Source: Nonlabens ponticola
GTDB taxonomy: Bacteria; Bacteroidota; Bacteroidia; Flavobacteriales; Flavobacteriaceae
Assembly: GCF_003966335.1 (NCBI RefSeq)
Contig: NZ_CP034549.1
Coordinates: forward strand, 1,140,001-1,172,000
DNA length: 32,000 bases
Direction: 5' to 3'
This document shows, piece by piece, positions 2,987 to 32,000 of the stretch. The notes beneath the pieces were generated by a model that worked only from the letters and a program-made list of their open reading frames with translations, was not told where the DNA came from and did not search any database. The position numbers and the translations under genes are program-made. Within the stretch, counting starts at the first letter, position 1. Each line of letters starts with the position of its first letter.

Positions 2987-4351
2987 ATGAAAAAATTTAG
3001 GCTTCATTTTTTATTTCTATTTGCAGTTTTCGGACTGCTCTCATGCTCTGAAGATATTGAGGAACTAGAAGAAAGTACACAATTAAATCAACCTGTTGTA
3101 GAAAGTAAGGCAGCCAGCCCCAATGGTGTTATGATGCAAGCATTTTACTGGGACGTTCCTGCTGGAGGAACCTGGTGGAACACGATTAAAGGCAAGGTGC
3201 CAGCGTGGTCAAATGCTGGAATTAACGCTATCTGGCTACCGCCAGCTTCTAAGGCTCAAAACGGCGGTTATTCCATGGGATATGATCCTTTTGACTACTT
3301 CGATTTTGGACAGTATAATCAAATGGGAAGTACGCAGACACGCTTTGGATCTAAGAGCGAATTAACTAGCTTGATTACCAAAGCACACCAAAATAACATA
3401 AACGTTTATGCGGATATTGTTCTTAATCACAACAGTGGTGGTGCGCTAGAGTATAATAATTTTGCTGGCAGCAATACCTATACAGACTATGCACCAGCAT
3501 CAGGTATGTTCTATAGGTCTCAATATGATTTTCACCCTAATGATTATCATCACAATGACTCTGGAAAATTTGGTGGGTTTGCAGATTTGTGCCATCATAA
3601 AGGTTATGTTCAAGATCAATTGTACCGTAACTCCAACAGTGTTGCAAAATATTATAAGAACGTGATGAAGTTTGATGGCTGGAGATTTGACTATGTAAAA
3701 GGTTTTGAACCTTGGGTCATTCAAGAGTGGAATAGGAATGCTGGCGGTTTTAGCGTTGGTGAACTTTGGGACGGTAATGCTGCTACTCTGGAAAATTGGG
3801 TGAATCAATCAGGTAGTAGTGCTTTTGACTTTGCGTGTTATTACCGTATGAAAGATGCTTTTCAGGGAAACAATTTATCTCTGCTCAATGGTGATATGTT
3901 ATTAAAGCGCAACCCTGGCAAAGCGGTGACTTTTGTAGCAAATCATGATACTGACGAGATTTTTAATAACAAATTGTTGGCGTATGCCTACATTTTAACG
4001 CATGAAGGATATCCAACTATGTTTTATAGCGATTACGAATCGTGGTTAGATAAAAATAAACTCAATAATTTAATCTGGATTCATAACAATCTGGCTGGTG
4101 GTACGACTAGCTATCTTCATGCTGACAATGATGAGTATGTGGCACGTCGCAATGGATATAACAATAATGGTATCATAGTTTATCTCAACATCAGCAACTC
4201 GTACAAGGAACGCTGGGTTCAGACAAATTGGGGATCACGTCGTATAAAGGATTACACGGGTAATTCTAATTGGGAGCCAGTAACCCAAGGTAATGGTTGG
4301 GTAAAGATCCAGGTACCACCTAATAGTTATACTGTGTGGTCTGTAAAATAA
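2987..4351 (+). CDS. GH13 alpha-amylase, predicted lipoprotein
   Basis: 454 aa. Signal peptide with lipobox (FGLLSC). The four GH13 conserved regions are visible: DIVLNH, GWRFDYVKG, VGELWD and FVANHD. The N-terminus reads MMQAFYWDVP...GGYSMGYDPFDYFDFG. Confidence 0.9.
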   Translation: MKKFRLHFLFLFAVFGLLSCSEDIEELEESTQLNQPVVESKAASPNGVMMQAFYWDVPAGGTWWNTIKGKVPAWSNAGINAIWLPPASKAQNGGYSMGYDPFDYFDFGQYNQMGSTQTRFGSKSELTSLITKAHQNNINVYADIVLNHNSGGALEYNNFAGSNTYTDYAPASGMFYRSQYDFHPNDYHHNDSGKFGGFADLCHHKGYVQDQLYRNSNSVAKYYKNVMKFDGWRFDYVKGFEPWVIQEWNRNAGGFSVGELWDGNAATLENWVNQSGSSAFDFACYYRMKDAFQGNNLSLLNGDMLLKRNPGKAVTFVANHDTDEIFNNKLLAYAYILTHEGYPTMFYSDYESWLDKNKLNNLIWIHNNLAGGTTSYLHADNDEYVARRNGYNNNGIIVYLNISNSYKERWVQTNWGSRRIKDYTGNSNWEPVTQGNGWVKIQVPPNSYTVWSVK

Positions 4352-4711: not shown

Positions 4712-5605
4712 ATGCAAGAAAGTCAATTTGAAAAATATCTGAGACTAGAAAGACAATATAGTGTCCATACAGTAGAGGCTTACAGTAATGATGTTGCACA
4801 GTTCCTTGATTTTGTCACAGAAAATTTTGAAACAGATGCTGCACAGGTCAATTATCCTATGGTGAGGAGTTGGCTTGCTGTACTATTAGAGCAGCAGGTA
4901 AGTAATCGTAGCATCAACCGTAAGATGTCGTCCCTCAAGACTTATTTCAAATACTTGCAACTCAGCGGCATTGTCGACAGCAACGTCATGAATAAGCACA
5001 AGAGTTTGAAAGTTAATAATAACATTCAAACGCCCATGTCACCAGACGAGATTAAAAGTCTCTTATCACAACCAATAGATGAAACAGACTTTACCGCCGT
5101 GCGCGATAGATGTGTCATGGAACTATTATACACCGCTGGCCTGCGACGAGCAGAGCTCATTTCATTGACAATTGCTTCTATTGATCATCAAAAAAAGCAG
5201 TTGATTGTAAACGGTAAGCGCAACAAGCAGCGATTGATACCGCTGCTTCCTTCAATGCTAGAAAGGATTAATAATTACAAGGTACTGCGGGAACTCCATT
5301 ATTCCTCAAGCACCGTTCAGGAATTGTTTATCACTTCAAAAGGCAAACCGATTTATCCTACATTGCTATATAGAATTGTGACTACACAACTAAAAAGCAT
5401 AAGTAGCAAGACCAAAGTAAGTCCTCATATCTTAAGGCATACGTTTGCCACTCATTTAATCAATAATGGCGCAGAGCTTAATGGAGTAAAGGAGTTGTTG
5501 GGTCATGCTAGTTTGGCAAGCACACAAGTCTATACTCATTCCAGTATGGAAGCGCTCAAGAAAGTTCACGCACTGGCTCATCCACGCAATAATAAGAAAC
5601 GGTAA
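4712..5605 (+). CDS. tyrosine site-specific recombinase, XerC/XerD family
   Basis: 297 aa. N-terminal SAM-like core-binding domain. The catalytic residues are present in LYTAGLRRAEL, HILRHTFATHL and LLGHASLASTQVYTH. Confidence 0.85.
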   Translation: MQESQFEKYLRLERQYSVHTVEAYSNDVAQFLDFVTENFETDAAQVNYPMVRSWLAVLLEQQVSNRSINRKMSSLKTYFKYLQLSGIVDSNVMNKHKSLKVNNNIQTPMSPDEIKSLLSQPIDETDFTAVRDRCVMELLYTAGLRRAELISLTIASIDHQKKQLIVNGKRNKQRLIPLLPSMLERINNYKVLRELHYSSSTVQELFITSKGKPIYPTLLYRIVTTQLKSISSKTKVSPHILRHTFATHLINNGAELNGVKELLGHASLASTQVYTHSSMEALKKVHALAHPRNNKKR

Positions 5606-5747: not shown

Positions 5748-5821
5748 GCCGATGTAGCTCAGCTGGCTAGAGCAGCTGATTTGTAATCAGCAGGTCGTGG
5801 GTTCGAGTCCCTCCATCGGCT
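5748..5821 (+). tRNA. tRNA-Thr (anticodon UGU)
   Basis: Cloverleaf folded by hand. Acceptor GCCGATG/CATCGGC, anticodon stem GCTGA/TCAGC, loop TTTGTAA, T-loop GGTTCGAGTCC. CCA is not encoded. Confidence 0.95.
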
Positions 5822-5853
5822 CAAGTTTTTTGAAAAATTGAATTAATTAATTT

Positions 5854-5934
5854 GGGGAGATACTCAAGCGGCCAACGAGGACGGACTGTAACTCCGTTGG
5901 GAAACCTTCGCAGGTTCGAATCCTGCTCTCCCCA
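5854..5934 (+). tRNA. tRNA-Tyr (anticodon GUA), long variable arm
   Basis: Acceptor GGGGAGA/TCTCCCC, anticodon stem ACGGA/TCCGT, loop CTGTAAC, long variable arm, T-loop GGTTCGAATCC. Confidence 0.95.
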
Positions 5935-5970
5935 CTTTTTTAATTACTGTGCCGATTTATTGGTGCAATT

Positions 5971-6043
5971 GCGAGAGTAGCTCAGTTGGTAGAGCGTCAG
6001 CCTTCCAAGCTGAATGTCGCCGGTTCGAACCCGGTCTCTCGCT
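5971..6043 (+). tRNA. tRNA-Gly (anticodon UCC)
   Basis: Acceptor GCGAGAG/CTCTCGC, anticodon stem TCAGC/GCTGA, loop CTTCCAA, T-loop GGTTCGAACCC. Confidence 0.95.
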
Positions 6044-6098
6044 CAAAATAGAGTAATGCCTTTCTTGATTTTAGAATGATAAAGTCATGAAAAAACAG

Positions 6099-6170
6099 GC
6101 CGGTGTAGCTCAGGGGTAGAGCGTTTCCTTGGTAAGGAAGAGGTCACGAGTTCAAATCTCGTCATTGGCT
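6099..6170 (+). tRNA. tRNA-Thr (anticodon GGU)
   Basis: Acceptor GCCGGTG/CATTGGC with two G-U pairs, anticodon stem TTTCC/GGAAG, loop TTGGTAA, T-loop AGTTCAAATCT. Confidence 0.9.
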
Positions 6171-6287
6171 CAAAAGTATTGAAGAAAAAAATAGGTCTTT
6201 AGCGAGGCCATTTACAGTATAAGCTGATGTGGTTTGTAGCCAGTTGGTTTTAAATTGAAACACTAATATAAACTAAGATTATAAGTT

Positions 6288-10265: not shown

Positions 10266-10317
10266 CAATCAATTAGTACGCAATTAATTATTTATAAATT
10301 TTATTAAAACGATAGAA

Positions 10318-10692
10318 ATGGCAGATTTAAAAGATTTCGCAGAGCAGTTAGTTAACTTAACTGTGAAAGAAGTAAACGAATTAGCAGACATACTTAAAGA
10401 AGAGTATGGAATTGAACCAGCAGCAGCAGCAGCTGTTATGGCTGGACCAGCTGCAGGCGGCGGTGAAGCTGCTGATGAGCAGACTGAATTTGATGTAATC
10501 CTAACTGCTCCAGGTGGCGCTAAGCTTGCTGTAGTAAAACTAGTTAAAGAATTAACTGGTGCTGGATTGAAAGATGCAAAAGAACTTGTTGATAGTGCAC
10601 CATCTCCAATTAAGGAAGGTGTTTCTAAAGATGAGGCAGAAGCACTTAAGGCACAGCTAGAAGAAGCTGGTGCTGAGGTTGAGTTGAAGTAA
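10318..10692 (+). CDS. rplL: 50S ribosomal protein L7/L12
   Basis: 124 aa. Ala/Gly-rich hinge and C-terminal domain [24 protein letters not shown]...[10 protein letters not shown]. Confidence 0.98.
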
Positions 10693-10714
10693 TTCTTCAC
10701 AACCCAACATTATC

Positions 10715-17700: not shown

Positions 17701-19025
17701 CTGAGGCTAAATTAATGCACCCTAAGACGGGAATTCTTCTTAACTCCAATAATATCCCTTATGGATCAGAGCTGTATGCAAAGGTTGGAGCCAAGGTTAA
17801 GAAAGGTGATCTGATTGCTAAATGGGATGCCTTTAACGGTGTGATCATTTCAGAATTTGCTGGTAAGATCAAGTTTGAAAATATCATTCAAGGAACAACC
17901 TTCCAGGTAGAGACTGATGAGCAAACAGGATATGAGGAGAAAGTAATTTCTGATTCGCGTGATAAAAAGTTGATCCCTACGTTGCATATTGTTGACACGA
18001 AAGGTGAAACACAAATAAGTTACAACCTACCAGTCGGAGCTCACCTGATGGTAAATGATGATGAGAAGATCAAAGTAGGTAAAGTGCTTGTTAAGATACC
18101 ACGTAAATCTGCCAAAGCAGGTGATATAACCGGTGGTCTTCCTCGAGTTACTGAATTATTTGAAGCGCGTAATCCTTCTAATCCAGCAGTAGTGACTGAG
18201 ATTGATGGTGTCGTTTCTTTCGGTAAGATCAAAAGAGGTAATCGTGAAATTATCGTGACTTCTAAGACTGATGAGGTTAAGAAATACCTAGTAAAACTAT
18301 CTAATCAAATCTTAGTACAAGAGAATGATTATGTTAGAGCAGGTATGCCGTTGTCTGATGGTTCTATTACACCTAAAGATATTCTTGCTATCAAAGGACC
18401 TAGCGCTGTTCAACAGTATCTAGTAAATGAGGTACAAGAAGTATATAGGTTACAAGGTGTGAAAATCAATGACAAACATTTTGAAGTTGTTGTACGTCAA
18501 ATGTTGCGTAAGGTTAAGATCGTTGATCCAGGTGATGGTGTATTCTTGGAGAACCAATTGGTTCACAAGGAAGACTTTATCAAAGAGAATGATAAACTTT
18601 ATGGTATGAAGGTAGTTGAAAGTGCTGGTGATTCTGATACCTTGAAAGAAGGGCAAATCATCACTCCACGACAACTGCGCGATGAAAATAGTAAACTTAA
18701 GAGAGAAGATAAGAATGCGGTAGTTGCAAGAGATGTAGAACCAGCAACAGCAGAGCCTGTGTTGCAAGGTATTACACGCGCATCACTACAAACTAAATCT
18801 TTCATTAGTGCTGCATCATTCCAGGAAACTACTAAAGTATTGAATGAGGCTGCGGTTAGCGGTAAGGTCGATACCCTAGAAGGACTGAAAGAGAATGTAA
18901 TCGTGGGACATAGAATACCAGCTGGTACTGGAATGCGTAACTATGATGATATCATCGTAGGTAGTAAAGAAGAATTTGAAAATTTACTGCAACGCAAGGA
19001 CGAACCACAAGTAAACTATAATTAA
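14718..19025 (+). CDS. rpoC: DNA-directed RNA polymerase subunit beta'
   Basis: 1435 aa. Zn-finger [20 protein letters not shown], catalytic [12 protein letters not shown], and trigger-loop/bridge-helix regions are recognisable. Confidence 0.99.
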
Positions 19026-19333
19026 TGAGTAAGGAGAGGAAAGATCACAAAATCAACATTGAAATAGATCCAGAGGTTGCAGAAGGTCAATACAGTAATT
19101 TGGCCATTATCAATCATTCAGTTTCAGAGTTTGTTGTTGATTTCGTGAATATCATGCCAGGTAATCCAAAAAGTAAAATCAAGTCAAGGATCATATTGAC
19201 TCCTCAACATGCTAAACGTTTAGCAATGGCGCTGTCTGATAATGTTCAAAAGTTTGAAAAAATGCATGGGACTATTAAGGACTATGATAAACCTCCTATT
19301 CCATTAAATTTTGGCCCGACGGGTCAAGCATAA
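19025..19333 (+). CDS. small conserved protein, DUF3467-like
   Basis: 102 aa. The ATG overlaps the rpoC TAA by one base (TAATG at 19023-19027). The sequence YSNLAIINHSVSEFVVDFVNIMPG...RIILTPQHAKRL matches my memory of the DUF3467 family found after rpoC in Bacteroidota; this is not verified by a search. Confidence 0.7.
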   Translation: MSKERKDHKINIEIDPEVAEGQYSNLAIINHSVSEFVVDFVNIMPGNPKSKIKSRIILTPQHAKRLAMALSDNVQKFEKMHGTIKDYDKPPIPLNFGPTGQA

Positions 19334-19335
19334 TC

Positions 19336-19370
19336 AAAAGCCTGATGTTATCATCAGGCTTTTTTATTTT
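19336..19370 (+). terminator. rho-independent terminator closing the rpoBC-DUF3467 unit
   Basis: GCCTGATG (19340-19347) pairs with CATCAGGC (19352-19359) around a 4-nt loop TTAT. An A-tract lies upstream and TTTTTTATTTT downstream. Confidence 0.85.
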
Positions 19371-19678
19371 ATATATATTCCTCATAAGAAAATTCGATAG
19401 CTTTGGTTTTTGCGACACCATTGAGTCGCTTCTAAGGCTATTTTAGATATTTCATATAGAAACACCCATAAGCTAAAATTAAGCCTGCTCATGCGCCTCA
19501 AAACAAGATTTTAAAAGGTGTACTACTAAATAAGTTTTTCTTACCAGTGTTTGGTCGATTATATCTGATCTTAAGCGATACGTTTCGTTAATCTTAGGAA
19601 TAATTAAAGATTTCAGTTAAGATATACTTAATTTAGTAGGTAAAACCCTATCCAAGGGTCGTTTTAAAAAATGTCTAT

Positions 19679-22600
19679 ATGAATAACTTTACTCGTTCCC
19701 TATCTGTTTTAAGGAGTACTAGTTTATTGAAGTTCCCTATACTTCTAGCGATTCTACTAGCCTCATTGCAGTCTATAGCTCAGTCAGATCCAGTATTCCC
19801 TAATACCGCGAGACTTATTGAAGGTACTGATTTGCAGGAAGGTGCTGTGTATTTATTGCCTAATGCGGTAGAAGCCGGCGTTAATGGTACTGAAAACGCA
19901 GATGCCTTGTTAACCATTGTTGATATTATAGGTACTGCATCGGTAAATTCAATCGATATTACTCAAATAGAGCAAACCTATTTTGAGCCTAGTATTACAT
20001 ATCGAGCGGCTGGTGACGCGGTAGAATTCGAGATGATCTTTATAAGATCTGGCTCTGCAGAGCCAAATCTTGAAGATGCAGTAAAGCTGCCTATCGATAG
20101 TTATTCGATGGCGGTCATAGATTTAGATGGTGCTGAATTTGCTAACATACTTGTACCTGCGAGTTATACACTAGATAATAATACGCAACTTACTGATATA
20201 GTGACACCTGGTGATCCATATGTTCAGTTTACCAGCCCTCAAAATCCATTTGCCGCTGGAGCCAGCATAGCAAATACTGAATACATTGTTCAGGTCAATT
20301 ATGTTGACGTAAGCCGGGTCAACTTTATCCTAGGTAGAAATGTCAATGCTACCTCTACCAGAAATATCTCCATAAGTTTTTTAGGTGATGTTAATTTCAC
20401 GGCCCAAAACTCTACAACTAACGAGGTGAATAATCCGCCTCTGGTCGTTAACCAACAAGGTTCTACACGTTTTAATACAACCAGTATAAGCTTTGATCTA
20501 CTTGATGGATCGTCTGATCCCCAAGGAAATATAGATCCCAGCACACTGTTTTTGGTGGATCCGAATGATGCAAATAACTTTGGTGAGGTAGGTACGCCTC
20601 TCACAATTCCAGGTCAAGGAACCTATGTCGTGCAAAACGATGCTACTGTGACCTTTGATCCAGAGACTGGTTTCTTGGGGAACGCAGTCGTCAATTTTAG
20701 GGTAGAGGATCTGCCAGGCGCTACTTCCAATACTGCTAGCTTAATTGTTAATGTTGATAGGGATTCTGATGGTGACGGGATTGATGATTCGGTCGATCTT
20801 GATGATGATAATGATGGTATTCCAGATCTAATTGAAGCAGGTGGTCAGGTCAATGACTCTGCAGATTGTAGTGGTGGTCAATTGAATTTTGCTGCGGCAA
20901 ATGCAACATTGGAGTCAGGTAGTGATAATGGCGTTGTTGATGAAGGTGATGTTTTTAGATTTGCCAATGTCCAGACTAATCCTGGAGTGGATGCTTTAAT
21001 TACCATTGTTAATTATGACAGTGCGCAAATTGTCGATATAGATGATGAGACCGTTGGAGTTGGTTTTGCAGAAGGTTTTCAACCACGTATTCAATATATA
21101 GGTGCTGGTAATCCTGGCGTTGATTTACTTTTTAGTTTCGTAGAGTCGGGTACTAATAACCCGGTAACGCTAGATTCATTTTCTGGTGTGGTAAATGATG
21201 TGGATGGAACTGGCGTTCGTGAGGCATATGTTATAAACGATCCAGCCTTTTACGCTCTTAATAATCCAACCAATCTTGTCGCTACTAATTTAGGTGGCGG
21301 CAACATAAGATTTTCGGCTGATGGTCAATCAGATCAAGCCAGTATTGGAACTGCTCCCGAATATCAAGGTTATTTTCAATTCAACAATGTACAGCAAGTA
21401 CCTTTGCGTGTAGAGTTTTTAAACCCTAACAACAACACGCGAACAAGACAATTTAGTATACTCATTGATGAGTGCGCTATCAATTCTTTTGATGAGCCAC
21501 TTGTAGTAATTGATACAGAAAATGCACCAGATAGCGATGGCGATGGCATTGATGATTATCTGGATTTAGACTCTGATAATGACGGTATCTATGATGTGGT
21601 AGAGGCCGGTCATGACGCAGCACAATCAAATGGTGTATTGACTGGACCGGTAGGAACAGACGGTATTCCAGATGCAGTGCAAGATGCTGGCGATGAGGAT
21701 AGCGGCGAGGTCAATTACACACTTGTAAATTCAGATTCTGTTGGTGAGCCAGATTATTTAGATCTTGATAGTGACGGTGATGGATGTACTGATAGTAATG
21801 AAGCCTATGCAGATTCAAATGCTGATGGCGACGATGATGGTCAATTCGGTAGTGGATTACCCGCTGCGACAAACAATAATGGTACAGTAGCTTCCGCTAG
21901 TTACAATGCACCTGCGGACCAGAATTCTAATAGTGTAGCAGACTTTCGCGAAAGCGGTCCAGACGTCAATGGCGACAATAGGCCAGACGCCTGTTTTCCT
22001 CCTGTAGATTCTGACGGAGATACCGTTTTTGACAATAGAGATCTTGACGATGATAATGATGGTATCCTTGATATAGTTGAGGAATTAGGATTTGACGACA
22101 GTAATTGTGATCAACCAGAGGTAAACATAATCGGGACTAATGCAAACCTTGAATCGGGAACCGCCGGTGAGATAGGTGCTGTTTATAGATTTCCCAATGC
22201 TATCCCATCGCAAAATCGTGACGTTTTAGTTACGATTGTTGATAAGTCAGATGCGGCGACCCTTATCGATATTGATACACCTAATGGAAATCAATTGCGC
22301 AACGTTGCCTTAAGACCTCGTATAAGGGACAACAATCTTACTGATGGTGTAGCCGCAACCGTGACTTTTGAGCTTACTGTTGTTGAAAATGGACAAAATA
22401 CACCACTGACGATTGAAAGATTTGGTGGTATTGCTGGTGATATAGATGGTGTCAATCCTGGTAATGAGGTGGTTACCATAATTGATCCAGATTATCTTGC
22501 GGTTGATGAGACTACTTTGCTTTCGCGAAATGACTTACCTAACGATCGCTACGAGTATCCTAGTCCCGTAGGAGCAAATAATGTGACCGAGGAGAGAAAA

Positions 22601-25600
22601 GCGGTCTTTTTTGCCTACAACTCTCCGAGAACCTCTGTAGAAATACAATTAGGTGTAAACGGATCCTCTGATTCTGGTACAACTACAGATGACGAGCGAT
22701 TAGGTCTAGTAACTTTTGGTGAATGTACGATCAACACCTTACCAGACCCTAATCTTGATGTAATAAATGGCCGCGATCCAGACGGTGACGGTATCCCAAA
22801 TTCCCGTGATATTGACGCTGATAACGATGGTATCATTGATATAGTTGAAAATGGAAACGGTGATCTTGACGCAGACGGTGATGGCATAATTGATGGCCCA
22901 GTAGGCAGTAACGGTGTTCCTGATAGTGTTGAGAATGGTGGTGCTGATTCTGGAGACGTTGATTTTCCAGATGATTTTGACAATGATGATATTTTAAATT
23001 TCCTTGACCTTGACTCTGACGATGACAGCATTGCAGACAATGTAGAAGGTCAACCTACAGATTCTTACCAGACTCCAGTAGCAGGCGATGGCAATAATAA
23101 TGGTCTGTTAGATATCTATGAGCAAGGTGGTACCACTGGTATTGACCCAGAAAATACAGATGGTACAGATGGTCCTGACTTTTTAGACCTGGACTCTGAC
23201 AATGATTCCATCAGTGATCTAAATGAGGCAAACGATGACAACCTCGATGGTATAGCAGATATTCAGCCCTCAGGAGATGATGTAGATGAAGATGGTCTTG
23301 ACGACGCTTTTGATAGCGATGCAAATGATTTTGGAGATTTAAATGGTGGGTTTGTAGATACAGACCCTGCTGCAGATCTTACTAATAGTGATGGCGCTGA
23401 TGATGTAAATTATCGTGACACAGATGATGACAATGATGGGACGCTCACTAGCGATGAGGTTACAGACCCAAATAATCCAGAAGATGGAAACGGTAATGGA
23501 ATTCCAGACTTCCTAGAAAATATAGACACAGATGGTGACGGAATTCAAGACGATGTTGATGTCGATGATGACAACGATGGTATTCTAGACACGGTCGAAG
23601 GTCAAGGTGATCGTGATAATGATGGTATTCCTAATTCTCTCGATCTAGATTCTGATGGCGATGGGCTACCAGATAATATCGAGGCTCAAACTACCTTAGG
23701 CTATGTAGTGCCTCTAGATAGTGACAATGATGGTATTCCAGATGTAAATGCAAATGGTTTACCTACTTCTTATGATTTTAATGGTGACGGTTTAGGGTTA
23801 CTACCTGTAAATACTGACAACGCAGATCAGCCTGACTACCTGGACTTAAACTCTGATAATCAAGGTGATAACGATACAGTTGAGGCTGGCATCACGCTAA
23901 CTGGCGATGACACAGATGGTGACGGTCTAGATGATGCTACAGATGAGACTGACTCACCAGCTGGCAACTATGCAGATCCTAATGGAACCATTGATGACCC
24001 AGCGCTTCTACCAGATACCGATGGTGATTTGAATTCTGGAGGTAATGTTGATTTTAGAGATAGAACCTTGCCTAACGATGCAGATGGTGATGGCGTTCTG
24101 GACAAAGATGATCTTGATGATGATAACGATGGTATCAGTGATATTACGGAAGGTTTAGAGTTTTTCGTTGATGATTCTGCTACGTGTAGCGGTATCGATT
24201 ATGAGTTTAACGGCGGCACATTAATCGCTGGAACTGCAGGTCAAGTAGGTGCTAGATATAGATTTAGCAATGTGGCGCCTGGCCTTGACGCTATTATACA
24301 AATCACCCAACGCAGTGCAGGTGCTACACTTGCAAGTATCGATCAAAATTTAGGTGATGGTTCTGCATGGCAGCCATCCATCAGCTACTCTGCAGCTTCA
24401 AATGGTGATCTTACCATGACATTTAGAGTAGAGCTGGTAACTACTGGAACCCAAACGCTTGCCACGGTTGATCGCATAGGTGGCGTCATTCAAGATATTG
24501 ACAGCGATGGTACCGGTAGAATTAGAGAATTTTATAGATTATCAAACTTAGATAATTACACCGTTGACGCTAACACTAGAGTCATCGCTCAAGAGCTAGG
24601 TGGTGGTCAGTTCCAGTTCCGTGCAAATGGTACTGGTAGCGCGCCTATTGAGCCTATCGACACAGATCCTGCTTACAAGGTGTTCTTCCAGAGACAAGAC
24701 GTAAATCAGTTTACCTATGTAATAGGTGTAACTAAAAATATTAATCAAGCACAGACTAGATTCTACAGCGCTCGATTTGACGAGTGTCGTATTAACACAT
24801 TTGACGAGCCAGTAGTCGTTATCGTCAATGCACCAGATACTGACAATGATGGAACCCCTAATTATTTAGATACAGATTCAGATAATGATGGTTGTAATGA
24901 TACCATTGAGGCTGGTTTTGTTGATGCTTTCGCGAAAGCGGACGAAGACGGATTCCTAGGTAACGGTACACCAGTTGTAGAACCATCAAATGGTTTAGTG
25001 ACAAGTGGTAACAATGGCGAAGGTTACACAGAACCTAGAGACGCAAACAACAATGGCATTTTTGATTTCTTAGAAGCTGGATATTCAGAGGCTTGTAATG
25101 ATACAGACGGCGATGGTATAAATGACCTAGTCGACATCGACGATGACAACGACGGTATCTTGGATACCGATGAGGATGCAGATGATGATGGTGACGGCAA
25201 CCCGTTCACGGATCCTACGGATACTGACAATGATGGTATCCCAGACTTCCTTGACCAGGATGCAGATGGTGATGGTATCCCAGATAATGTAGAGGGCCAG
25301 ACCACCGATGGTTATGTGGAGCCTAGTGGCAATGATACCGATGGCAATGGTCTTGATGATGCCTATGAGGCGACTCCAGGCTCTGGTGATGGTATCAATG
25401 TAGAGGATACGGACACTGACGGCACACCTGACTATCAGGATACGGACTCAGACGACGATGGCGTCAACGATATCTTTGAGGGAACCGATAGAGACGGTGA
25501 TGGCACTCCAGATGTGGTTCCAGCAGGAACAGATACGGACAACGACGGTATCGACGACAACTTTGATGATACTGATGGTTATGCAGATCCTAACGGTAAC

Positions 25601-28600
25601 CAGGTAACAAACGATCCAGAGACAGAGCTTGCCAATATTGATGGTGATGAGCAGCCCAACTACCGTGATAGAGATGATGATGGTGACAACGTGCTTACCG
25701 CAGACGAGAACCCAGACCCTAACGGCGATGGCGATCCTAGCGACGCGCAGGATACCGACAATGATGGCATCCCAGATTATCTGGATACGGACGATGACGG
25801 CGACGGCATAGACACCGCAGATGAGGACTATGACGGTGATGATGATCCAACGGATCAGGACAGCGACAACGATGGCATCCCAGATTACTTAGATGATGAT
25901 GATGACGGTGACAACGTTCTTACCGCAGATGAGACCCCAGATCCTAACGGTGATGGTAATATCGACGACGCACAGGATACTGATAGTGACGGTATCCCAG
26001 ATTACCTAGATGAGGATGATGACGGCGATGGCATTGATACGGTCAATGAAGATTATGATGGTGACAATGATCCAACAGATCAGGATAGCGATAGTGACGG
26101 CATTCCAGATTATCTAGATGAGGATGATGATAACGATGGCATCGATACGATCGACGAGAATCCAGACCCTAACGGTGATGGTGATCCAGCCGATGCACAG
26201 GATAGCAATGGCGATGGTGTTCCAGACTACCTGGATACTACAGATATCGATGGTGATGGAATCGTGGATTCTGTCGACATCGACGATGACAACGACGGTA
26301 TCTTGGATACTGATGAGGATGCAGATGATGACGGTGACGGCAACCCGTTCACGGATCCTACGGATACTGACAATGATGGTATCCCAGACTTCCTTGACCA
26401 GGATGCAGATGGTGATGGTATCCCAGATAATGTAGAGGGCCAGACCACCGATGGTTATGTGGAGCCTAGTGGCAATGATACCGATGGCAATGGTCTTGAT
26501 GATGCCTATGAGGCGACTCCAGGCTCTGGTGATGGTATCAATGTAGAGGATACGGACACTGACGGCACACCTGACTATCAGGATACGGACTCAGACGACG
26601 ATGGCGTCAACGATATCTTTGAGGGAACCGATAGAGACGGTGATGGCACTCCAGATGTGGTTCCAGCAGGAACAGATACGGACAACGACGGTATCGACGA
26701 CAACTTTGATGATACTGATGGTTATGCAGATCCTAACGGTAACCAGGTAACAAACGATCCAGAGACAGAGCTTGCCAATATTGATGGTGATGAGCAGCCC
26801 AACTACCGTGATAGAGATGATGATGGTGACAACGTGCTTACCGCAGACGAGAACCCAGACCCTAACGGCGATGGCGATCCTAGCGACGCGCAGGATACCG
26901 ACAATGATGGCATCCCAGATTATCTGGATACGGACGATGACGGCGACGGCATAGACACCGCAGATGAGGACTATGACGGTGATGATGATCCAACGGATCA
27001 GGACAGCGACAACGATGGCATCCCAGATTACTTAGATGATGATGATGACGGTGACAACGTTCTTACCGCAGATGAGACCCCAGATCCTAACGGTGATGGT
27101 AATATCGACGACGCACAGGATACTGATAGTGACGGTATCCCAGATTACCTAGATGAGGATGATGACGGCGATGGCATTGATACGGTCAATGAAGATTATG
27201 ATGGTGACAATGATCCAACAGATCAGGATAGCGATAGTGACGGCATTCCAGATTATCTAGATGAGGATGATGATAACGATGGCATCGATACGATCGACGA
27301 GAATCCAGACCCTAACGGTGATGGTGATCCAGCCGATGCACAGGATAGCAATGGCGATGGTGTTCCAGACTACCTGGATACTACAGATATCGATGGTGAT
27401 GGAATCGTGGATTCTGTCGACATCGACGATGACAACGACGGTATCTTGGATACTGATGAGGATGCAGATGATGACGGTGACGGCAACCCGTTCACGGATC
27501 CTACGGATACTGACAATGATGGTATCCCAGACTTCCTTGACCAGGATGCAGATGGTGATGGTATCCCAGATAATGTAGAGGGCCAGACCACCGATGGTTA
27601 TGTGGAGCCTAGTGGCAATGATACCGATGGCAATGGTCTTGATGATGCCTATGAGGCGACTCCAGGCTCTGGTGATGGTATCAATGTAGAGGATACGGAC
27701 ACTGACGGCACACCTGACTATCAGGATACGGACTCAGACGACGATGGCGTCAACGATATCTTTGAGGGAACCGATAGAGACGGTGATGGCACTCCAGATG
27801 TGGTTCCAGCAGGAACAGATACGGACAACGACGGTATCGACGACAACTTTGATGATACTGATGGTTATGCAGATCCTAACGGTAACCAGGTAACAAACGA
27901 TCCAGAGACAGAGCTTGCCAATATTGATGGTGATGAGCAGCCCAACTACCGTGATAGAGATGATGATGGTGACAACGTGCTTACCGCAGACGAGAACCCA
28001 GACCCTAACGGCGATGGCGATCCTAGCGACGCGCAGGATACCGACAATGATGGCATCCCAGATTATCTGGATACGGACGATGACGGCGACGGCATAGATA
28101 CGGCGGATGAGGACTATGACGGCGATGATGATCCAACAGATCAGGACAGCGACAACGACGGCATTCCAGATTATTTGGATACGGATGATGACGATGACAA
28201 CGTGCCTACGGCAGATGAGAACCCAGACCCTAACGGTGATGGTAATATCGACGATGCACAGGATACTGATAGTGACGGTATCCCAGATTACCTGGATGAG
28301 GATGATGACGGCGACGGCATTGATACGGTCAATGAAGATTATGATGGTGACAACGATCCAACAGATCAGGATAGTGATAATGACGGCATTCCAGATTATC
28401 TAGATGACGATGATGATAATGACGGCATTGACACGATCGACGAGAATCCAGACCCTAACGGTGATGGTGATCCAACCGATGCACAGGATAGCAATGGCGA
28501 TGGTGTTCCAGACTACCTGGATACTACAGATACCGATGCTGATGGAATCGTGGATTCTGTCGACATCGACGATGACAACGACGGTATTTTGGATACCGAT

Positions 28601-31600
28601 GAGGATGCAGACAATGACGGTGACGGCAACCCGTTCACGGATCCTACGGATACTGACAATGATGGTATTCCAGACTTCCTTGACCAGGATGCCGATGGTG
28701 ATGGTATCCCAGATAATGTAGAGGGCCAGACCACCGATGGTTATGTGGAGCCTAGTGGCAATGATACCGATGGCAATGGTCTTGATGATGCCTATGAGGC
28801 GACTCCAGGCTCTGGTGATGGTATCAATGTAGAGGATACGGACACTGACGGCACACCTGACTATCAGGATACGGACTCAGACGACGATGGCGTCAACGAT
28901 ATCTTTGAGGGAACCGATAGAGATGGCGATGGCACTCCAGATGTGGTTCCAGCAGGAACAGATACGGACAACGACGGTATCGACGACAACTTTGATGATA
29001 CTGATGGTTATGCAGATCCTAACGGTAACCAGGTAACAAACGATCCAGAGACAGAGCTTGCCAATATTGATGGTGATGAGCAGCCCAACTACCGTGATAG
29101 AGATGATGATGGTGACAACGTGCTTACCGCAGACGAGAACCCAGACCCTAACGGCGATGGCGATCCTAGCGATGCGCAGGATACCGACAATGATGGCATC
29201 CCAGATTATCTGGATACGGACGATGACGGCGACGGCATAGACACGGCGGATGAGGACTATGACGGCGATGATGACCCAAAGAATCAGGACTCAGACAACG
29301 ACGGCATTCCAGATTATTTGGATACGGATGATGACGATGACAACGTGCCTACGGCAGATGAGAACCCAGACCCTAACGGTGATGGTAATATCGACGATGC
29401 ACAGGATACTGATAGTGACGGTATCCCAGATTACCTGGATGAAGATGATGACGGTGATGGCATTGACACAGTTGATGAGAATCCAGATCCTAACGGTGAT
29501 GGAAACGTCGATGATGCACAGGATACTGATGGCGATGGCATTCCAGATTATTTAGATGTTGATGATAGGGATGGTGATGGTATACCAGACGCATTAGATA
29601 TTGATGATGATAATGACGGTATTCTTGACAGTGTAGAGAATGGTGGGCAGGATCCTTTTGAGGATGACGATAATGACGGTGTTCCTAATTTCAGAGATAC
29701 TGACTTTGGTGCAGATGCTAACAACGACGGTGTTGTAGATAGCTTTGATAGTGACGATGATGGAATCATTAATCAATTTGATCAAGATTCAGACGGTGAT
29801 GGTATTCCAGATAATGTCGAGGCTCAGTTTACTGATACTTATCAGGAACCAACTGGTGCAGACAATAATAATGATGGTCTCAACGATGATTATGCTCCTA
29901 ATGGTATAACTCCAGTTGATTCAGATAATGATGGTACACCAGACTATTTGGATGATGATTCAGATGATGATGGCATTACTGATGCTATAGAAGGCTTTGA
30001 TTTTGATAATGATGGTGTCGCAGACTCTGTTCCTAGCGGTGTCGACAATGATGGCGATGGTTTCGATGATAATTTTGATGCTACCACAGATCCAGCGGAC
30101 GCCTACGATGATCCTAATGGTAATTTAGTTTCTAATGACCCTGCAAATGAACTGAACAATACAGATGGCGAGGATGAACCAGATTATCGTGATACAGATG
30201 ATGACAATGATAATGTCTTAACTGATGTAGAGGTAACTGATAATGACAATCCAGAAGATTCTGATAACGATGGTATTCCAGATTATCTGGATGCAGATGA
30301 TCGTGACGGTGATGGCATTCCAGACACTGTAGATATTGATGATGACAATGACGGGGTTTTAGACAGCGTAGAAAACGGTGGTAATGATCCATTTAATGAT
30401 ACTGACAATGATGGTGTAGCAGATTTGTTTGACACAGACTTTGGTCCAGATTCAAATAATGATAGTATCGTTGATAGTTTTGATAGCGATCTTGATGGTA
30501 TCATCGATCAATTTGATCAGGACTCAGATGACGATGGTATTCCAGACAATGTCGAGGCACAGACTACTTCAGGATACACCGCACCTACCGGTAATGACGA
30601 TGACAATGATGGTCTTGACAACGCATATGAGGCAAATGGTATAACACCTGTCGATACTGATAGTGATACGATCCCAGACTATTTAGATGATGATTCTGAT
30701 GATGATGGTATTTCTGATAATATAGAAGGATTTGATTTTGATAATGATGGCGTTGTTGATATCGCTTTCGCGGAAGCGGACAATGATAACGACGGTCTGG
30801 ACGACAATTTTGATTCAACCACAGATCCAGCTGATGCTTATGATGATCCTAACGGAAACGTCGTCTCTAACGATCCAGCTAATGAGCTAAATAATACTGA
30901 CGGTGCAGATGAACCAGATTATCGTGATGCTGATGATGATAATGATGGTGTTGATACGGATGACGAGGTAACAGATAATGACAACCCAGAAGATTCTGAT
31001 AACGACGGTATACCAGACTATCTAGATGCAGATGACAATGACGGTGATGGTATTCCGGATACTGTAGATGTAGATGATGATAATGATGGTATTGCAGATG
31101 TTGTTGAAAATGGCGGCAACGATCCTTTCGGAGATGACGACAGTGATGGTATCGCAAATTTCCTAGACGTTGATGGTACTAATGATTCTAATAATGATGG
31201 AATTGTTGATGACTTTGATCAAGACTTAGATGGTATCGTCAATCAGTTTGATCTAGACGCAGATGGTGATGGATTGACAGATGTATTTGAATCAGGCAAC
31301 GCTGCTCTTGACACAAACGATGATGGATTAATCGATAGTCAAGATGCTGGATTCACCGACTCTCCTGCAAATGGACAAGCCGATAACACAGAAGGTACAA
31401 CACCAATCGACAGTGATGGTGATGGCGTTGCCGATTATCTTGACATTGATTCAGATAACGATGGTATAATTGATAATCTTGAAATTCAGGATTCTGCAAA
31501 TACGACAAGGCCAACAGGACAAGATGATGATGGTGATGGAACTGACAATGCCTATGATGCTGATAATGGAGGAACTCCAATCTTAACACCAGAAAATACT

Positions 31601-32000
31601 GATAGTGATACACAACCAGATTATCTAGATATCGACTCCGATGACGACGGTATTATCGATAATATTGAATGGCAGACAACTTCTGGATATTTAGAACCTA
31701 CTGCCGATACTGATGGCAACGGTCTGGCAGATAATTATGAGACTAGAGCAGGTTCTAATACCCCAATTAGACTTCCTGTAAATACTGATGGGGCTGATAA
31801 TCCAGATTATCGAGACCTAGATTCAGACGATGACGGTCTTACAGATAATGACGAGGTTTACAACTTGCCTCCAGCAAATCTTGATTCAGATAATGATGGT
31901 CTAGATGACGCCTATGACAATGATGACGTGGGTGGACTTGATGGTCCTGATGCGGCTACAAACGGCAACATGAATGGTCCAGATGGTGGTAGCGTTCAAG
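19679..32000 (+). CDS. giant secreted Asp-rich protein built from thrombospondin type-3-like calcium-binding repeats (putative surface adhesin or fibre); the 3' end lies beyond the window
   Basis: I translated by hand from the ATG at 19679 and found no stop through 31999, which is 4107 codons. No closed + ORF in this frame appears in the track. The N-terminal signal peptide is [36 protein letters not shown]. There are dozens of DxDxDG(I/V)(P)DxxD motifs. Antisense and off-frame ORFs in the track are shadows of this gene. Confidence 0.9.
   Translation, partial: [4107 protein letters not shown]
20432..20755 (+). other. Ig-like or CshA-type adhesin repeat module within the giant CDS
   Basis: The segment [48 protein letters not shown] has the pattern typical of bacterial adhesin beta-sandwich repeats (GTYTV..DGTVTFTP..GFTG...Y.V.D..G..S..A.L.V.V). 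Confidence 0.45.
20864..21499 (+). other. unnamed module of about 212 aa bracketed by cysteines, paralog 1 of 3 clear copies
   Basis: Runs from DCSGG to [12 protein letters not shown]. Shares GxV(F/Y)RFxNV...(V/L)DA(L/I)ITI, a central D(V/I)DGxG and a C-terminal (D/G)ECxINxFDEP with the copies at 22103 and 24182. A more diverged copy lies at about 19790-20430. Confidence 0.7.
21943..21954. repeat. palindrome family member CTTTCGCGAAAG inside the giant CDS
   Basis: Read directly. In-frame as D-F-R-E-S-G. Confidence 0.8.
22103..22750 (+). other. unnamed Cys-bracketed module, paralog 2
   Basis: Runs from [35 protein letters not shown] to [12 protein letters not shown]. Aligns by eye with the modules at 20864 and 24182. 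Confidence 0.7.
22521..22530. repeat. degenerate palindrome family member (GC)TTTCGCGAAA(TG) inside the giant CDS
   Basis: 10-nt perfect core TTTCGCGAAA. In-frame as L-S-R-N. Confidence 0.6.
24182..24811 (+). other. unnamed Cys-bracketed module, paralog 3
   Basis: Runs from [41 protein letters not shown] to [12 protein letters not shown]. Confidence 0.7.
24926..24939. repeat. palindrome family member GCTTTCGCGAAAGC inside the giant CDS
   Basis: 14-nt perfect palindrome. In-frame as A-F-A-K-A. Confidence 0.85.
25130..29593 (+). repeat. in-frame tandem array of a 1143-bp (381-aa) unit, 4 copies, the last lacking 108 bp
   Basis: Unit heads GTCGACATCGACGATGAC occur at 25130, 26273, 27416 and 28559, each exactly 1143 bp apart. 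The shadow ORFs in the track repeat with the same period and identical translations. Confidence 0.95.
29594..31270 (+). repeat. in-frame tandem array of a diverged 735-bp (245-aa) unit, about 2.3 copies, in register with the 1143-bp array
   Basis: Unit heads (L/V)D(I/V)DDDNDG occur at 29594, 30329 and 31064. Shadow ORFs 29548..29769 and 30283..30504 are 735 bp apart. There are many substitutions between copies. Confidence 0.85.
30763..30778. repeat. imperfect palindrome family member CGCTTTCGCGGAAGCG inside the giant CDS
   Basis: One mismatch to the 16-mer found at 1135 and 7559. In-frame as A-F-A-E-A. Confidence 0.7.

What the first reader, a model, noticed from the sequence alone, without database searches (positions are those of the whole stretch)
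19679..32000. Giant ORF (over 4107 codons, still open at the window edge) missing from the ORF track
The largest gene in the window is invisible in the supplied track because it has no stop here. The track shows only its antisense Ser/Pro-rich and off-frame Met/Thr-rich shadows. The product has a signal peptide and then an almost continuous run of DxDxDG(I/V)PDxxD calcium-binding loops. These resemble thrombospondin type-3 repeats, as seen in Bacteroidota OmpA-like and T9SS cargo proteins. In the arrays about one residue in three is Asp; I counted 23 of 62 at the head of the 1143-bp unit. A module of about 130 aa recurs at about 23040, 23650, in each array unit, and at 31650; it reads DN(V/I)ExQ(T)TxxYxxP...NGLxDxYE...TDxxxxPDYxDxDSDxDG. 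The likely role is a polyanionic, calcium-stiffened surface fibre or adhesin. The C-terminal sorting or anchor domain lies outside the window.
Basis: partly seen in the sequence, partly recalled or inferred. Interest (0 to 1): 0.65.

Follow-up and report, generated by a model that had tools for sequence, protein, structure and literature searches.

The report
Giant calcium-loop surface adhesin gene
This is the first 4107 codons of a real, very large and extremely acidic surface-adhesin gene of a marine Flavobacteriaceae bacterium: four sugar-binding-like head domains on a long stalk of calcium-binding loops, a kind of protein that is common in this group but poorly annotated.

Summary
**Observation: confirmed.**
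- An ORF starts at ATG 19679 and stays open for 4107 codons to the window edge.
- It is 25% Asp, with a net charge of about -1130.
- It has 150 DxDxDG motifs against about 7 expected by chance.
- It contains a 1143-bp tandem array of 3.84 copies at 25105-29488.

**Interpretation: largely right, with two corrections.**
- The first 1712 residues are not calcium loops. They hold four copies of a ~210-aa all-beta domain ('X') and one CshA/Big_9 Ig-like domain. X has no Pfam or NCBIfam model, yet it matches 1274 cluster representatives. Its nearest folds are lectin-like streptococcal adhesin heads.
- The 'TSP3' label holds only at motif level. Pfam TSP_3 and TSP3_bac score 14-17 bits against a cut-off of 25. 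The closest solved match to the repeat unit is the calcium-held C-domain of Flavobacterium BamM, not thrombospondin.

**C-terminus: unseen.**
- Of 45 relatives with a visible gene end, 38 finish in a type IX secretion (T9SS) sorting domain.
- All six closest relatives end in CHU_C (type B). The three I checked have a PorP/SprF gene directly downstream.
- One complete ortholog with the same head ends in Por_Secre_tail.

**Verdict:** a T9SS-exported fibrillar adhesin, and a new member of a known kind. Interest is modest. The unmodelled X domain is the most useful by-product.

The parts
19336..19363 (+). Intrinsic terminator that closes the rpoB-rpoC-DUF3467 operon. The giant gene therefore has its own 315-nt upstream region.
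   Evidence: 12-bp stem with 5 G-C pairs plus a T-run. DUF3467 at 19025-19333 scores 108 bits.
19679..19780 (+). Start codon and Sec signal peptide (aa 1-34), with predicted cleavage at SIA|QSD.
   Evidence: First start codon after the in-frame stop at 19637. Features n/h/c regions by inspection. Orthologs have the same ...A|Q junction. No signal-peptide predictor was available.
19784..20413 (+). X0: the N-terminal tip domain (aa 36-245), a divergent copy of the X domain.
   Evidence: hhalign of A2 against A1 gives probability 97.8%, E=7.5e-13 over 189 columns. It is 41-48% identical to orthologs in Lacinutrix, Mariniflexile, Polaribacter and Flavicella. The AF2 model is all-beta but of low confidence, pLDDT 59.
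20414..20749 (+). Ig-like stalk domain of CshA-repeat/Big_9 type (aa 246-357).
   Evidence: Pfam CshA_repeat scores 35.2 bits (cut-off 27) and Big_9 27 bits (cut-off 23.6). PDB CshA 6szc matches at E=6.6e-4.
20864..21514 (+). X1: lectin-like beta-sandwich domain (aa 396-612), bracketed by Cys397 and Cys599.
   Evidence: Alignment A1. AF2 gives pLDDT 77.7 and pTM 0.80. Foldseek top hits are the antigen I/II V-region, Sgo0707 and GbpC, TM 0.45-0.50. Cys positions.
21515..22093 (+). Linker L2 (aa 613-805): calcium loops plus a ~70-aa module bracketed by Cys703 and Cys772.
   Evidence: 6 DxDxDG motifs and 22% Asp. The segment is collinear with P0021.
22094..22768 (+). X2: lectin-like domain (aa 806-1030), bracketed by Cys810 and Cys1016.
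22769..24166 (+). Linker L3 (aa 1031-1496): calcium loops, including two copies of the ~140-aa module (anchors at nt 23036 and 23672).
   Evidence: 15 DxDxDG motifs. Module copies. The region is 54-60% identical to P0021, P0023 and P0041.
24167..24814 (+). X3: lectin-like domain (aa 1497-1712), bracketed by Cys1503 and Cys1703.
25105..29488 (+). Tandem array of a 1143-bp (381-aa) unit, 3.84 copies. Each unit holds one ~140-aa module plus 36/39-aa calcium-loop repeats; the array is 35% Asp.
   Evidence: Lag-1143 identity is 97.7%, and copies 1 and 2 are identical over more than 1.7 kb. TRF finds inner periods of 108, 117 and 225 bp. There are 87 DxDxDG motifs.
29489..32000 (+). Post-array stalk (aa 3271-4107+): four more diverged ~140-aa modules. 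The frame is still open at the window edge.
   Evidence: 35 DxDxDG motifs. Module anchors at nt 29810, 30545, 31472 and 31658. The last 248 aa are 50-57% identical to internal parts of 4.5-4.8-kaa CHU_C proteins.

Best explanation
**What it is.** The ORF is the N-terminal 4107 or more residues of a cell-surface fibrillar adhesin of a marine Flavobacteriaceae bacterium.

**Proposed route and mechanism**
1. The Sec system exports it using the N-terminal signal peptide.
2. [quoted passage not shown] This would use a C-terminal sorting domain beyond the window, most likely type B (CHU_C). That type is handed to a cognate PorP/SprF outer-membrane shuttle/anchor encoded just downstream.
3. The cell-distal N-terminal part carries four lectin-like beta-sandwich X domains (X0-X3) and one Ig-like domain. 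These are the likely ligand-binding heads, probably for glycans.
4. The rest is a stalk of about 180 Dx[DN]x[DN]G loops. These are arranged as 36-39-aa repeats and ~140-aa modules.
5. By analogy with the BamM C-domain and thrombospondin type-3 repeats, the stalk has little regular secondary structure. It would fold only around bound Ca2+, which is plentiful in seawater, into a stiff and highly anionic fibre that projects the heads away from the cell.
6. The near-identical 1143-bp repeats allow stalk length to change by recombination.

**Shown here:** the ORF, its composition, the motifs and repeats, the domain family and its fold class, and the homologs' C-termini and neighbouring genes.

**Inferred:** the secretion route, calcium binding, the fibre's properties and the ligand type.
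For: **The gene is real and native**
- 4107 codons are open, with P about 1e-113 by base composition.
- Differences between array copies are mostly synonymous, and GC3 equals that of rpoBC.

**Heads**
- The X-domain family has invariant Cys8/Cys210, D118, D120, E126 and R201.
- It matches 1274 representatives at E<=1e-3 and 794 at E<=1e-10.
- The AF2 model has pLDDT 77.7 and pTM 0.80.
- The best PDB folds are the antigen I/II V-region, SspB, GbpC and Sgo0707 adhesin heads, at E 1e-4 to 2e-3.
- The N-terminal domain is a fourth copy.
- A CshA_repeat/Big_9 domain scores above the Pfam cut-offs.

**Calcium loops**
- DxDxDG occurs 150 times against 7.4 expected.
- The repeat-unit profile hits BamM 9n2d_D residues 278-302 at E=6.8e-5.
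- The BamM C-domain has no regular secondary structure and is held together by seven Ca ions (PMC12611786).

**Secretion route**
- The complete Flavicella ortholog with the same head ends in Por_Secre_tail, 29 bits against a cut-off of 27.
- Psychroserpens P0041 (4788 aa, 53.5% identical over aa 1311-1799) ends in CHU_C at 90.9 bits.
- 52 of 150 X-domain proteins carry a T9SS C-terminal domain, many of the rest being fragments.
- 38 of 45 metagenomic relatives with a visible stop end in a T9SS C-terminal domain: 30 type B and 8 type A.
- The six closest end in CHU_C at 72-93 bits.
- Three of these were checked downstream, and each has a PorP/SprF gene 17-61 nt after the stop, at 285-312 bits.

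**Literature**
- Bacteroidetes fibrillar adhesins use CHU_C or Por_Secre_tail anchors (PMC8286594).
Against: - The C-terminus and the downstream gene are outside the window. The source genome could not be found in any collection, so the secretion route is inferred only from relatives that are 35-60% identical.
- The relatives are mosaic proteins, and both type A and type B C-terminal domains occur among them.
- A few X-domain or module proteins end in other sorting tails, PEP-CTERM-like or IPTL-CTERM-like.
- The fold match of X to adhesin heads is moderate, TM 0.45-0.50 with rmsd 5-10 A. No sequence-level link exists, and no ligand is known.
- Calcium binding is inferred from the motif, not measured.
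- Pfam TSP_3 and TSP3_bac are below threshold.
- There is no expression evidence.
Confidence: 0.7

Rival explanations
1. A polyanionic calcium sink or matrix protein. The Asp-rich region is itself the functional part: it buffers or captures Ca2+, bridges Ca2+ to acidic algal or biofilm polysaccharides, or nucleates mineral. The globular domains are accessory.
For: - Asp reaches 35% in the array, net charge is about -1130, and there are about 180 Dx[DN]x[DN]G loops.
- T9SS mutants of Cytophaga hutchinsonii are defective in Ca2+ acquisition. The authors speculate that unidentified T9SS substrates take part (PMC7906972).
Against: - Seawater calcium is not limiting for a marine flavobacterium (general knowledge).
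- Orthologs with the same head use quite different stalks: DUF11 and other domains in Flavicella, an RCC1-like region in Lacinutrix, and Laminin_G in Polaribacter. The conserved element is therefore the head, not the poly-Asp region.
- The loops are ordered 12-residue motifs with conserved hydrophobic positions, not plain poly-Asp.
Confidence: 0.15
2. The same adhesin, but exported with a type A C-terminal domain (Por_Secre_tail) via PorV. It would then be attached to anionic LPS or released, rather than held by a type B/PorP-SprF anchor.
For: - The only complete ortholog with the same X0 head (Flavicella, L008) has Por_Secre_tail.
- 39 of the 52 C-terminal domains found in X-domain proteins are type A.
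- 8 of 45 module relatives are type A.
Against: - All six closest relatives of the window's last 248 aa, and P0041, are type B.
- 30 of 38 C-terminal domains among module relatives are type B.
Confidence: 0.15
3. An OmpA-like, peptidoglycan-tethered TSP3-repeat protein, as the first reader offered as one option.
For: - TSP3-type loops do occur in Bacteroidota OmpA-family proteins (general knowledge).
- An OmpA/PD40/LysM gene lies near one relative, L013.
Against: - None of the 45 relatives with a visible end finishes in OmpA.
- The OmpA-family gene in L013 is a separate, PorE-like gene after PorP/SprF.
- At 4107+ aa, with lectin-like heads at the N-terminus, the protein fits an outward-projecting adhesin.
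Confidence: 0.03
4. An assembly artefact or decaying gene. The perfect 1143-bp repeats are mis-assembled (wrong copy number or a chimera), or the gene is disrupted further downstream.
For: - Copies 1 and 2 are 100% identical over more than 1.7 kb.
- Related genomes break their assemblies in this gene: 5 of 8 loci end at a contig end, and one contains a run of N.
- The Mariniflexile ortholog is only 463-535 aa.
Against: - The frame stays open through 12.3 kb, including every repeat junction.
- Copies 2-4 differ at scattered, mostly synonymous sites, as expected of real diverging repeats.
- Complete relatives of 4.5-5.6 kaa exist.
- Copy number may be wrong, but the gene is not an artefact.
Confidence: 0.05

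Closest known systems
T9SS type-B (CHU_C) cargo adhesins of Flavobacteriia, e.g. F. johnsoniae SprB/Fjoh_3952 with their SprF-like shuttles; the closest annotated relative is Psychroserpens sp. NJDZ02 WP_136582148.1, 'T9SS type B sorting domain-containing protein' (4788 aa)
   Same: - Giant size, a Sec signal, and a repetitive stalk.
- Shared X domains and ~140-aa modules: 53.5% identity over aa 1311-1799.
- The closest relatives end in CHU_C and are followed by a PorP/SprF gene.
   Different: - The C-terminal domain of this protein is unseen.
- The stalk here is almost purely DxDxDG loops. SprB is not built this way. P0041's stalk is mostly other repeats, including Cys-containing TSP3_bac repeats that do pass Pfam at 74 bits.
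- There is no evidence for a role in gliding.
BamM (Fjoh_0050) C-terminal calcium domain, PDB 9n2d chain D
   Same: - It is the best solved match to the repeat unit: DTDKDGIADFLDSDDDGDG against DsDnDGIPDYLDeDDDgDg, E=6.8e-5.
- It is a Flavobacterium surface protein whose acidic domain lacks regular secondary structure and is organised by seven Ca2+ ions.
   Different: - BamM is a 388-aa lipoprotein with a PPIase domain, and part of the BAM complex.
- The NCBIfam BamM model scores 45 bits against a cut-off of 315, matching the repeats only.
- Only the loop motif is shared, not the family.
Thrombospondin/COMP type-3 repeats (Pfam PF02412) and bacterial TSP3 repeat (PF18884)
   Same: - A 12-13-residue DxDxDGxxDxxD loop, tandem 36-aa periodicity, and very high Asp content.
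- Dx[DN]xDG is an established Ca2+-binding motif (PMC3123361).
   Different: - Scores are 16.6 and 14.3 bits against cut-offs of 25.
- COMP is only E=0.24, and the unit profile finds no thrombospondin.
- The array has no Cys, whereas eukaryotic T3 repeats are disulfide-linked (own knowledge).
Streptococcal antigen I/II V-region / GbpC / Sgo0707 N-domain (lectin-like adhesin heads; Pfam GbpC PF08363)
   Same: - These are the best structural matches to the X1 model, with probability 1.0 and TM 0.45-0.50.
- These heads also sit on long stalks of fibrillar adhesins.
   Different: - There is no sequence similarity: no Pfam hit at E<=5 and no PDB sequence hit.
- X is about 215 aa, against about 330-400 aa for those heads.
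- The hosts are Gram-positive and use sortase anchoring.
- The ligand of X is unknown.

Membership tests
Thrombospondin type-3 repeat (Pfam TSP_3, PF02412) | Score at or above Pfam's gathering threshold (25 bits) | tested here: not met
   Best score is 16.6 bits (E=0.0066) on the 381-aa unit. The family is not reported at all on the whole protein at E<=0.01.
Thrombospondin type-3 repeat (Pfam TSP_3, PF02412) | DxDxDGxxDxxD calcium-loop motif in tandem with a ~36-aa period | tested here: met
   150 DxDxDG against 7.4 in shuffles, and 74 strict 12-mers against 0.08. Unit spacings are 36 and 39 aa. TRF finds a 108-bp period.
Thrombospondin type-3 repeat (Pfam TSP_3, PF02412) | Conserved Cys pairs within the repeats (disulfide-linked wire; own knowledge of TSP/COMP structures) | tested here: not met
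   There are only 10 Cys in 4107 aa, all between aa 397 and 1806. None lies in the arrays.
Thrombospondin type-3 repeat (Pfam TSP_3, PF02412) | Detectable sequence relationship to solved TSP/COMP signature domains | tested here: not met
   phmmer against COMP 3fby gives E=0.24, with 70 bits of bias removed. The unit profile finds no TSP or COMP at E<=10.
Bacterial TSP3 repeat (Pfam TSP3_bac, PF18884) | Score at or above the gathering threshold (25 bits) | tested here: not met
   Scores are 13.8-14.3 bits. By contrast, P0041, L010, L012 and L015 reach 74-129 bits on a different, Cys-containing repeat near their C-termini.
T9SS cargo protein | N-terminal Sec signal peptide | tested here: met
   MNNFTRSLSVLRSTSLLKFPILLAILLASLQSIA|QSD has basic n-, hydrophobic h- and small-residue c-regions, judged by inspection only. 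Orthologs share the A|Q junction. No predictor was available.
T9SS cargo protein | C-terminal sorting domain, type A (Por_Secre_tail, PF18962) or type B (CHU_C, PF13585) | not testable with these tools
   The ORF runs off the window, and the source genome is absent from all searchable collections. Indirect evidence: 38 of 45 relatives with a visible end have one. The six closest have CHU_C at 72-93 bits. Ortholog L008 has Por_Secre_tail at 29 bits.
T9SS cargo protein | For type B: a cognate PorP/SprF gene directly downstream (PMC12618676) | not testable with these tools
   The position is outside the window. It is present 17-61 nt downstream in relatives L010, L013 and L014, at 285-312 bits.
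Fibrillar adhesin (sense of Monzon & Bateman, PMC8286594) | Stalk of repeated domains | tested here: met
   CshA_repeat and Big_9 score above their cut-offs. In addition there are more than 2400 aa of tandem repeats.
Fibrillar adhesin (sense of Monzon & Bateman, PMC8286594) | A recognised adhesive domain | tested here: inconclusive
   No known adhesive Pfam family is hit. The X domain resembles adhesin heads by predicted fold only, TM 0.45-0.50.
Antigen I/II V-region / GbpC (PF08363) | Sequence match to the family model | tested here: not met
   No Pfam hit for any of six X-domain sequences at E<=5. The profile against PDB sequences finds nothing relevant.
BamM (NCBIfam NF053691) | Equivalog score at or above 315 bits, with the PPIase N-domain | tested here: not met
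   45 bits, from five stretches that all map to model positions around 263-290, i.e. the calcium loops only.

The most novel reading that the evidence does not exclude
**The X domain.** It may be a previously unmodelled, widespread family of lectin-like adhesive heads. The basis is at least 1274 clusters at 50% identity and no Pfam, NCBIfam or PDB sequence match. It is used mainly by Bacteroidota T9SS cargo and would be a remote structural cousin of the Gram-positive antigen I/II V-region/GbpC heads.

**The stalk.** The 2400+ aa poly-loop stalk would be a BamM-like 'calcium wire' with no regular secondary structure, on a scale not yet described, binding roughly 180-350 Ca2+ per molecule. Its stiffness and length would be set by ambient calcium and by recombination among the perfect 1143-bp repeats. 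It could also bind anionic algal polysaccharides directly through calcium bridges.
Probability: 0.2. Interest if true: 0.55.

Novelty: new member of a known kind. Interest (0 to 1): 0.32.

Why it matters
- **Ecology.** Giant T9SS adhesins are how marine Flavobacteriia attach to algae, particles and each other. Yet most are annotated only as 'hypothetical' or 'T9SS sorting domain-containing'.
- **Detection.** They are routinely broken or lost in short-read assemblies: 5 of 8 orthologous loci here end at contig edges.
- **A candidate new domain family.** This example gives a clean domain map and flags an unmodelled head domain (X) with more than a thousand relatives. That domain deserves a family model and a ligand screen.
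- **A structural precedent for the stalk.** It links the very common Asp-rich 'TSP3-like' stalks to an experimentally solved calcium-held fold in Flavobacterium BamM, which gives a concrete structural hypothesis to test.
- **No new biology.** It does not reveal a new kind of system.

Tried and rejected
**Finding the source contig, to read the C-terminus**
- Exact look-up of the DUF3467 protein and of RpoC found nothing on record.
- An exact 70-nt search in genome contigs and in metagenome contigs gave 0 hits each.

**Homology searches that added little**
- A search with the N-domain alone returned nothing because of the tool's word-index limits.
- A search with X3 plus its flank found only short fragments and no closer full-length relative.
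- P0003 could not be looked up.

**Structure and family searches**
- AF2 of the N-terminal X0 domain gave a poor model, pLDDT 59. Its Foldseek hits (CBM29, CBM4, CBM22, Sgo0707) have TM 0.3-0.4 and are only suggestive.
- The ~140-aa module has no Pfam family and no PDB sequence relative.
- NCBIfam gave nothing useful beyond BamM loop matches.

**Other checks**
- Bacteroidota O-glycosylation sequons D[ST][AILVMT] are not enriched: 38 observed against 37 expected.
- Rfam found only the five tRNAs.

**Rejected readings**
- OmpA-like anchor.
- Pseudogene or assembly artefact.
- True membership of Pfam TSP_3, TSP3_bac, BamM or GbpC.
Full report
**1. Observation**

The reading frame that begins at ATG 19679 is open for 4107 codons to the window edge. 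The nearest upstream in-frame stop is at 19637, and no other start codon lies between it and 19679. From base composition, the chance of this is about 1e-113. The ORF listing omits the ORF because it runs off the window. That tool shows only shadows of it. Four are +1-frame Met/Thr-rich ORFs at 26118, 27261, 28404 and 29250. One is an antisense Ser/Pro-rich ORF at 22615-23040.

The product is 25.4% Asp. It has 1214 acidic against 85 basic residues, and only 9 Lys, 1 His, 2 Trp and 5 Met. DxDxDG occurs 150 times against 7.4 in shuffles. The 12-residue form DxDxDG[IVL]xDxx[DE] occurs 74 times against 0.08.

A 1143-bp unit is repeated 3.84 times at 25105-29488, with 97.7% identity overall. Copies 1 and 2 are identical over more than 1.7 kb. 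Differences between copies are mostly synonymous (7:2 and 21:8), and GC3 is 0.33, matching rpoB/rpoC. This is a native gene under purifying selection.

**2. Context**

The window carries this gene order:
- a tRNA cluster
- tuf
- tRNA-Trp
- nusG
- rplKAJL (rplK, rplA and rplJ assigned from position and ORF size only)
- rpoB
- rpoC
- DUF3467

A strong terminator at 19336-19363 follows, and then 315 nt of non-coding DNA precede the giant gene. RpoC is 83% identical to that of Lacinutrix and Mariniflexile. In those genera the ortholog, which has the same N-terminal domain, also lies 3-4 kb downstream of rpoBC-DUF3467. The host is therefore a member of the Flavobacteriaceae.

**3. Anatomy**

The layout is as follows.

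| Residues | Feature | Evidence |
|---|---|---|
| 1-34 | Signal peptide | (inspection) |
| 36-245 | Tip domain X0 | |
| 246-357 | Ig-like domain; CshA_repeat 35 bits, Big_9 27 bits, both above cut-off | |
| 396-612 | X1, bracketed by one Cys pair | |
| 806-1030 | X2, bracketed by one Cys pair | |
| 1497-1712 | X3, bracketed by one Cys pair | |

X1-X3 are separated by Asp-rich linkers. A profile-profile comparison shows that the tip domain is a divergent fourth copy (probability 97.8%, E=7.5e-13).

The X domain has no Pfam hit even at E<=5, no NCBIfam hit and no PDB sequence relative. Even so, a profile of six copies finds 1274 cluster representatives at E<=1e-3 and 794 at E<=1e-10.

AlphaFold2 gives an all-beta model with pLDDT 77.7 and pTM 0.80. 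Its best PDB matches are these lectin-like adhesin heads, at E 1e-4 to 2e-3 and TM 0.45-0.50:
- the streptococcal antigen I/II V-region (6e36, 1jmm)
- SspB (6tzl)
- GbpC (5uqz)
- Sgo0707 (4igb)

This is a moderate fold-level resemblance, not family membership.

**4. The loops: TSP3 or not**

The motif and the 36/39-aa spacing match the thrombospondin type-3 pattern. The formal tests fail:
- Pfam TSP_3 scores 16.6 bits and TSP3_bac 14.3 bits, against cut-offs of 25.
- COMP is E=0.24 after 70 bits of bias correction.
- The arrays have no Cys.
- A profile of the window's own repeat unit finds no thrombospondin at E<=10.

That profile's best hit is instead BamM of Flavobacterium johnsoniae, 9n2d_D residues 278-302, at E=6.8e-5. 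NCBIfam's BamM model also matches, but on those loops only: 45 bits against a cut-off of 315.

The BamM paper reports that this C-terminal domain has no well-defined secondary structure and is structured by seven calcium ions on the cell surface (PMC12611786). Dx[DN]xDG is an established calcium-binding motif found in many structural contexts (PMC3123361). 'TSP3-like' is therefore a fair description of how the region probably works. It is not a demonstrated family assignment.

**5. Where it goes**

The C-terminus is outside the window, and the source genome is in none of the collections. The evidence from relatives is consistent:
- The complete Flavicella ortholog with the same head (1435 aa) ends in Por_Secre_tail.
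- Psychroserpens WP_136582148.1 (4788 aa) is 53.5% identical over aa 1311-1799 and ends in CHU_C.
- Small proteins of about 430 aa consist of a signal peptide, an X domain and Por_Secre_tail.
- 52 of the 150 best X-domain proteins have a T9SS C-terminal domain, and many of the rest are fragments.
- Among 80 metagenomic relatives of the window's last 248 aa, 45 show a stop. Of these, 38 end in a T9SS C-terminal domain: 30 type B and 8 type A.
- The six closest (50-57% identical) end in CHU_C at 72-93 bits; five of them are 3.9-4.8 kaa and the sixth (L011) is cut at its 5' end.
- Three of those were checked downstream. Each is followed 17-61 nt later by a PorP/SprF gene, and in L013 a PorE-like PD40/OmpA/LysM gene comes next.

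This is the published arrangement for type-B substrates, which are known or predicted adhesins (PMC12618676). In those relatives the matching region lies 1200-2800 aa before the stop. The full protein here may therefore be roughly 5300-6900 aa, though this is only a rough extrapolation.

**6. Mechanism**

The best-supported account, at confidence 0.7, runs as follows:
1. The protein is exported by Sec.
2. It is secreted by the T9SS, most likely through a type-B C-terminal domain.
3. It is held at the surface by a PorP/SprF partner.
4. Four lectin-like heads sit at the distal end.
5. The stalk of roughly 180 Ca2+ loops folds only around calcium into a stiff, strongly anionic fibre.
6. The perfect repeats permit changes in stalk length.

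Orthologs keep the head but swap the stalk: DUF11 and other domains in Flavicella, an RCC1-like region in Lacinutrix, and Laminin_G in Polaribacter. That argues the head is the conserved functional element.

Rival readings, with their confidence:
- calcium sink or matrix role (0.15)
- type-A rather than type-B sorting (0.15)
- OmpA-type anchoring (0.03)
- assembly artefact or pseudogene (0.05)

**7. Novelty and score**

Giant Asp-rich T9SS cargo proteins are common in marine Flavobacteriia. Relatives range from 7% to 28% Asp and reach 5600 aa. They are already annotated generically, so this is a new member of a known kind, and I score interest at 0.32.

The parts worth keeping are:
- the unmodelled X domain family
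- the ~140-aa loop module, which has no Pfam family or PDB sequence relative
- the BamM structural precedent for the stalk
- the practical point that such genes break assemblies

**8. What led nowhere**

Several steps gave nothing useful:
- Four attempts to find the source contig failed.
- Two homology searches were uninformative.
- The X0 model was of low confidence.
- O-glycosylation sequons are not enriched.
- Rfam found only tRNAs.

Noticed in passing
Proteins P0035, P0061, P0074, P0089, P0097 (tail ...NSYGFIRFRAKVK); P0068, P0075, P0090, P0105 (...ITNRRITYRVNKN); P0071, P0088 (...NPH[IV]MYYR); P0081; loci L059 and L080: X-domain or module proteins that lack a T9SS C-terminal domain carry other recurring C-terminal tails. 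These include a PEP-CTERM-like tail (P0081) and IPTL-CTERM-like tails (PTMNEWGQIIM..., L059 and L080). The head and stalk modules are therefore not tied to a single sorting system.
   Followed up: no
L003-L006 and L009 (orthologous loci): Five of eight orthologous genomic loci end at a contig edge inside this gene, and L006 contains a run of N. Short-read assemblies systematically break in these repeats.
   Followed up: partly
L013 15144-17979; L010 18127-19059; L014 14181-15110: The closest metagenomic relatives show the operon 'type-B cargo, then PorP/SprF'. In L013 a PorE-like PD40+OmpA+LysM gene follows. This matches the 'static anchored adhesin' arrangement described for F. johnsoniae.
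   Followed up: yes
window 19025-19333 and 19336-19363; L001, L003-L006: A DUF3467 gene overlaps the rpoC stop codon and is followed by a strong terminator. The rpoBC-DUF3467 neighbourhood of the giant gene is shared with Lacinutrix and Mariniflexile, but not with Polaribacter or Flavicella.
   Followed up: partly
window 4712-5605 and 5748-6171: A tyrosine recombinase (Phage_integrase plus SAM-like N-domain) lies directly upstream of a tRNA cluster (Thr, Tyr, Gly, Thr) and tuf. It could be XerC/D-like or an integrase remnant.
   Followed up: no
window 19679-31999 (protein aa 1-4107): There are only 9 Lys, 1 His, 2 Trp and 5 Met in 4107 residues; of the basic residues, only Arg (1.8%) is used to any extent. 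Two further ~70-aa modules are bracketed by Cys pairs (aa 703/772 and 1739/1806) and follow X1 and X3. They recur in P0002, P0003 and P0041.
   Followed up: no
window 10284-10700 (-): A 138-aa antisense ORF lies opposite rplL (10318-10692). It is most likely a non-coding shadow ORF.
   Followed up: no
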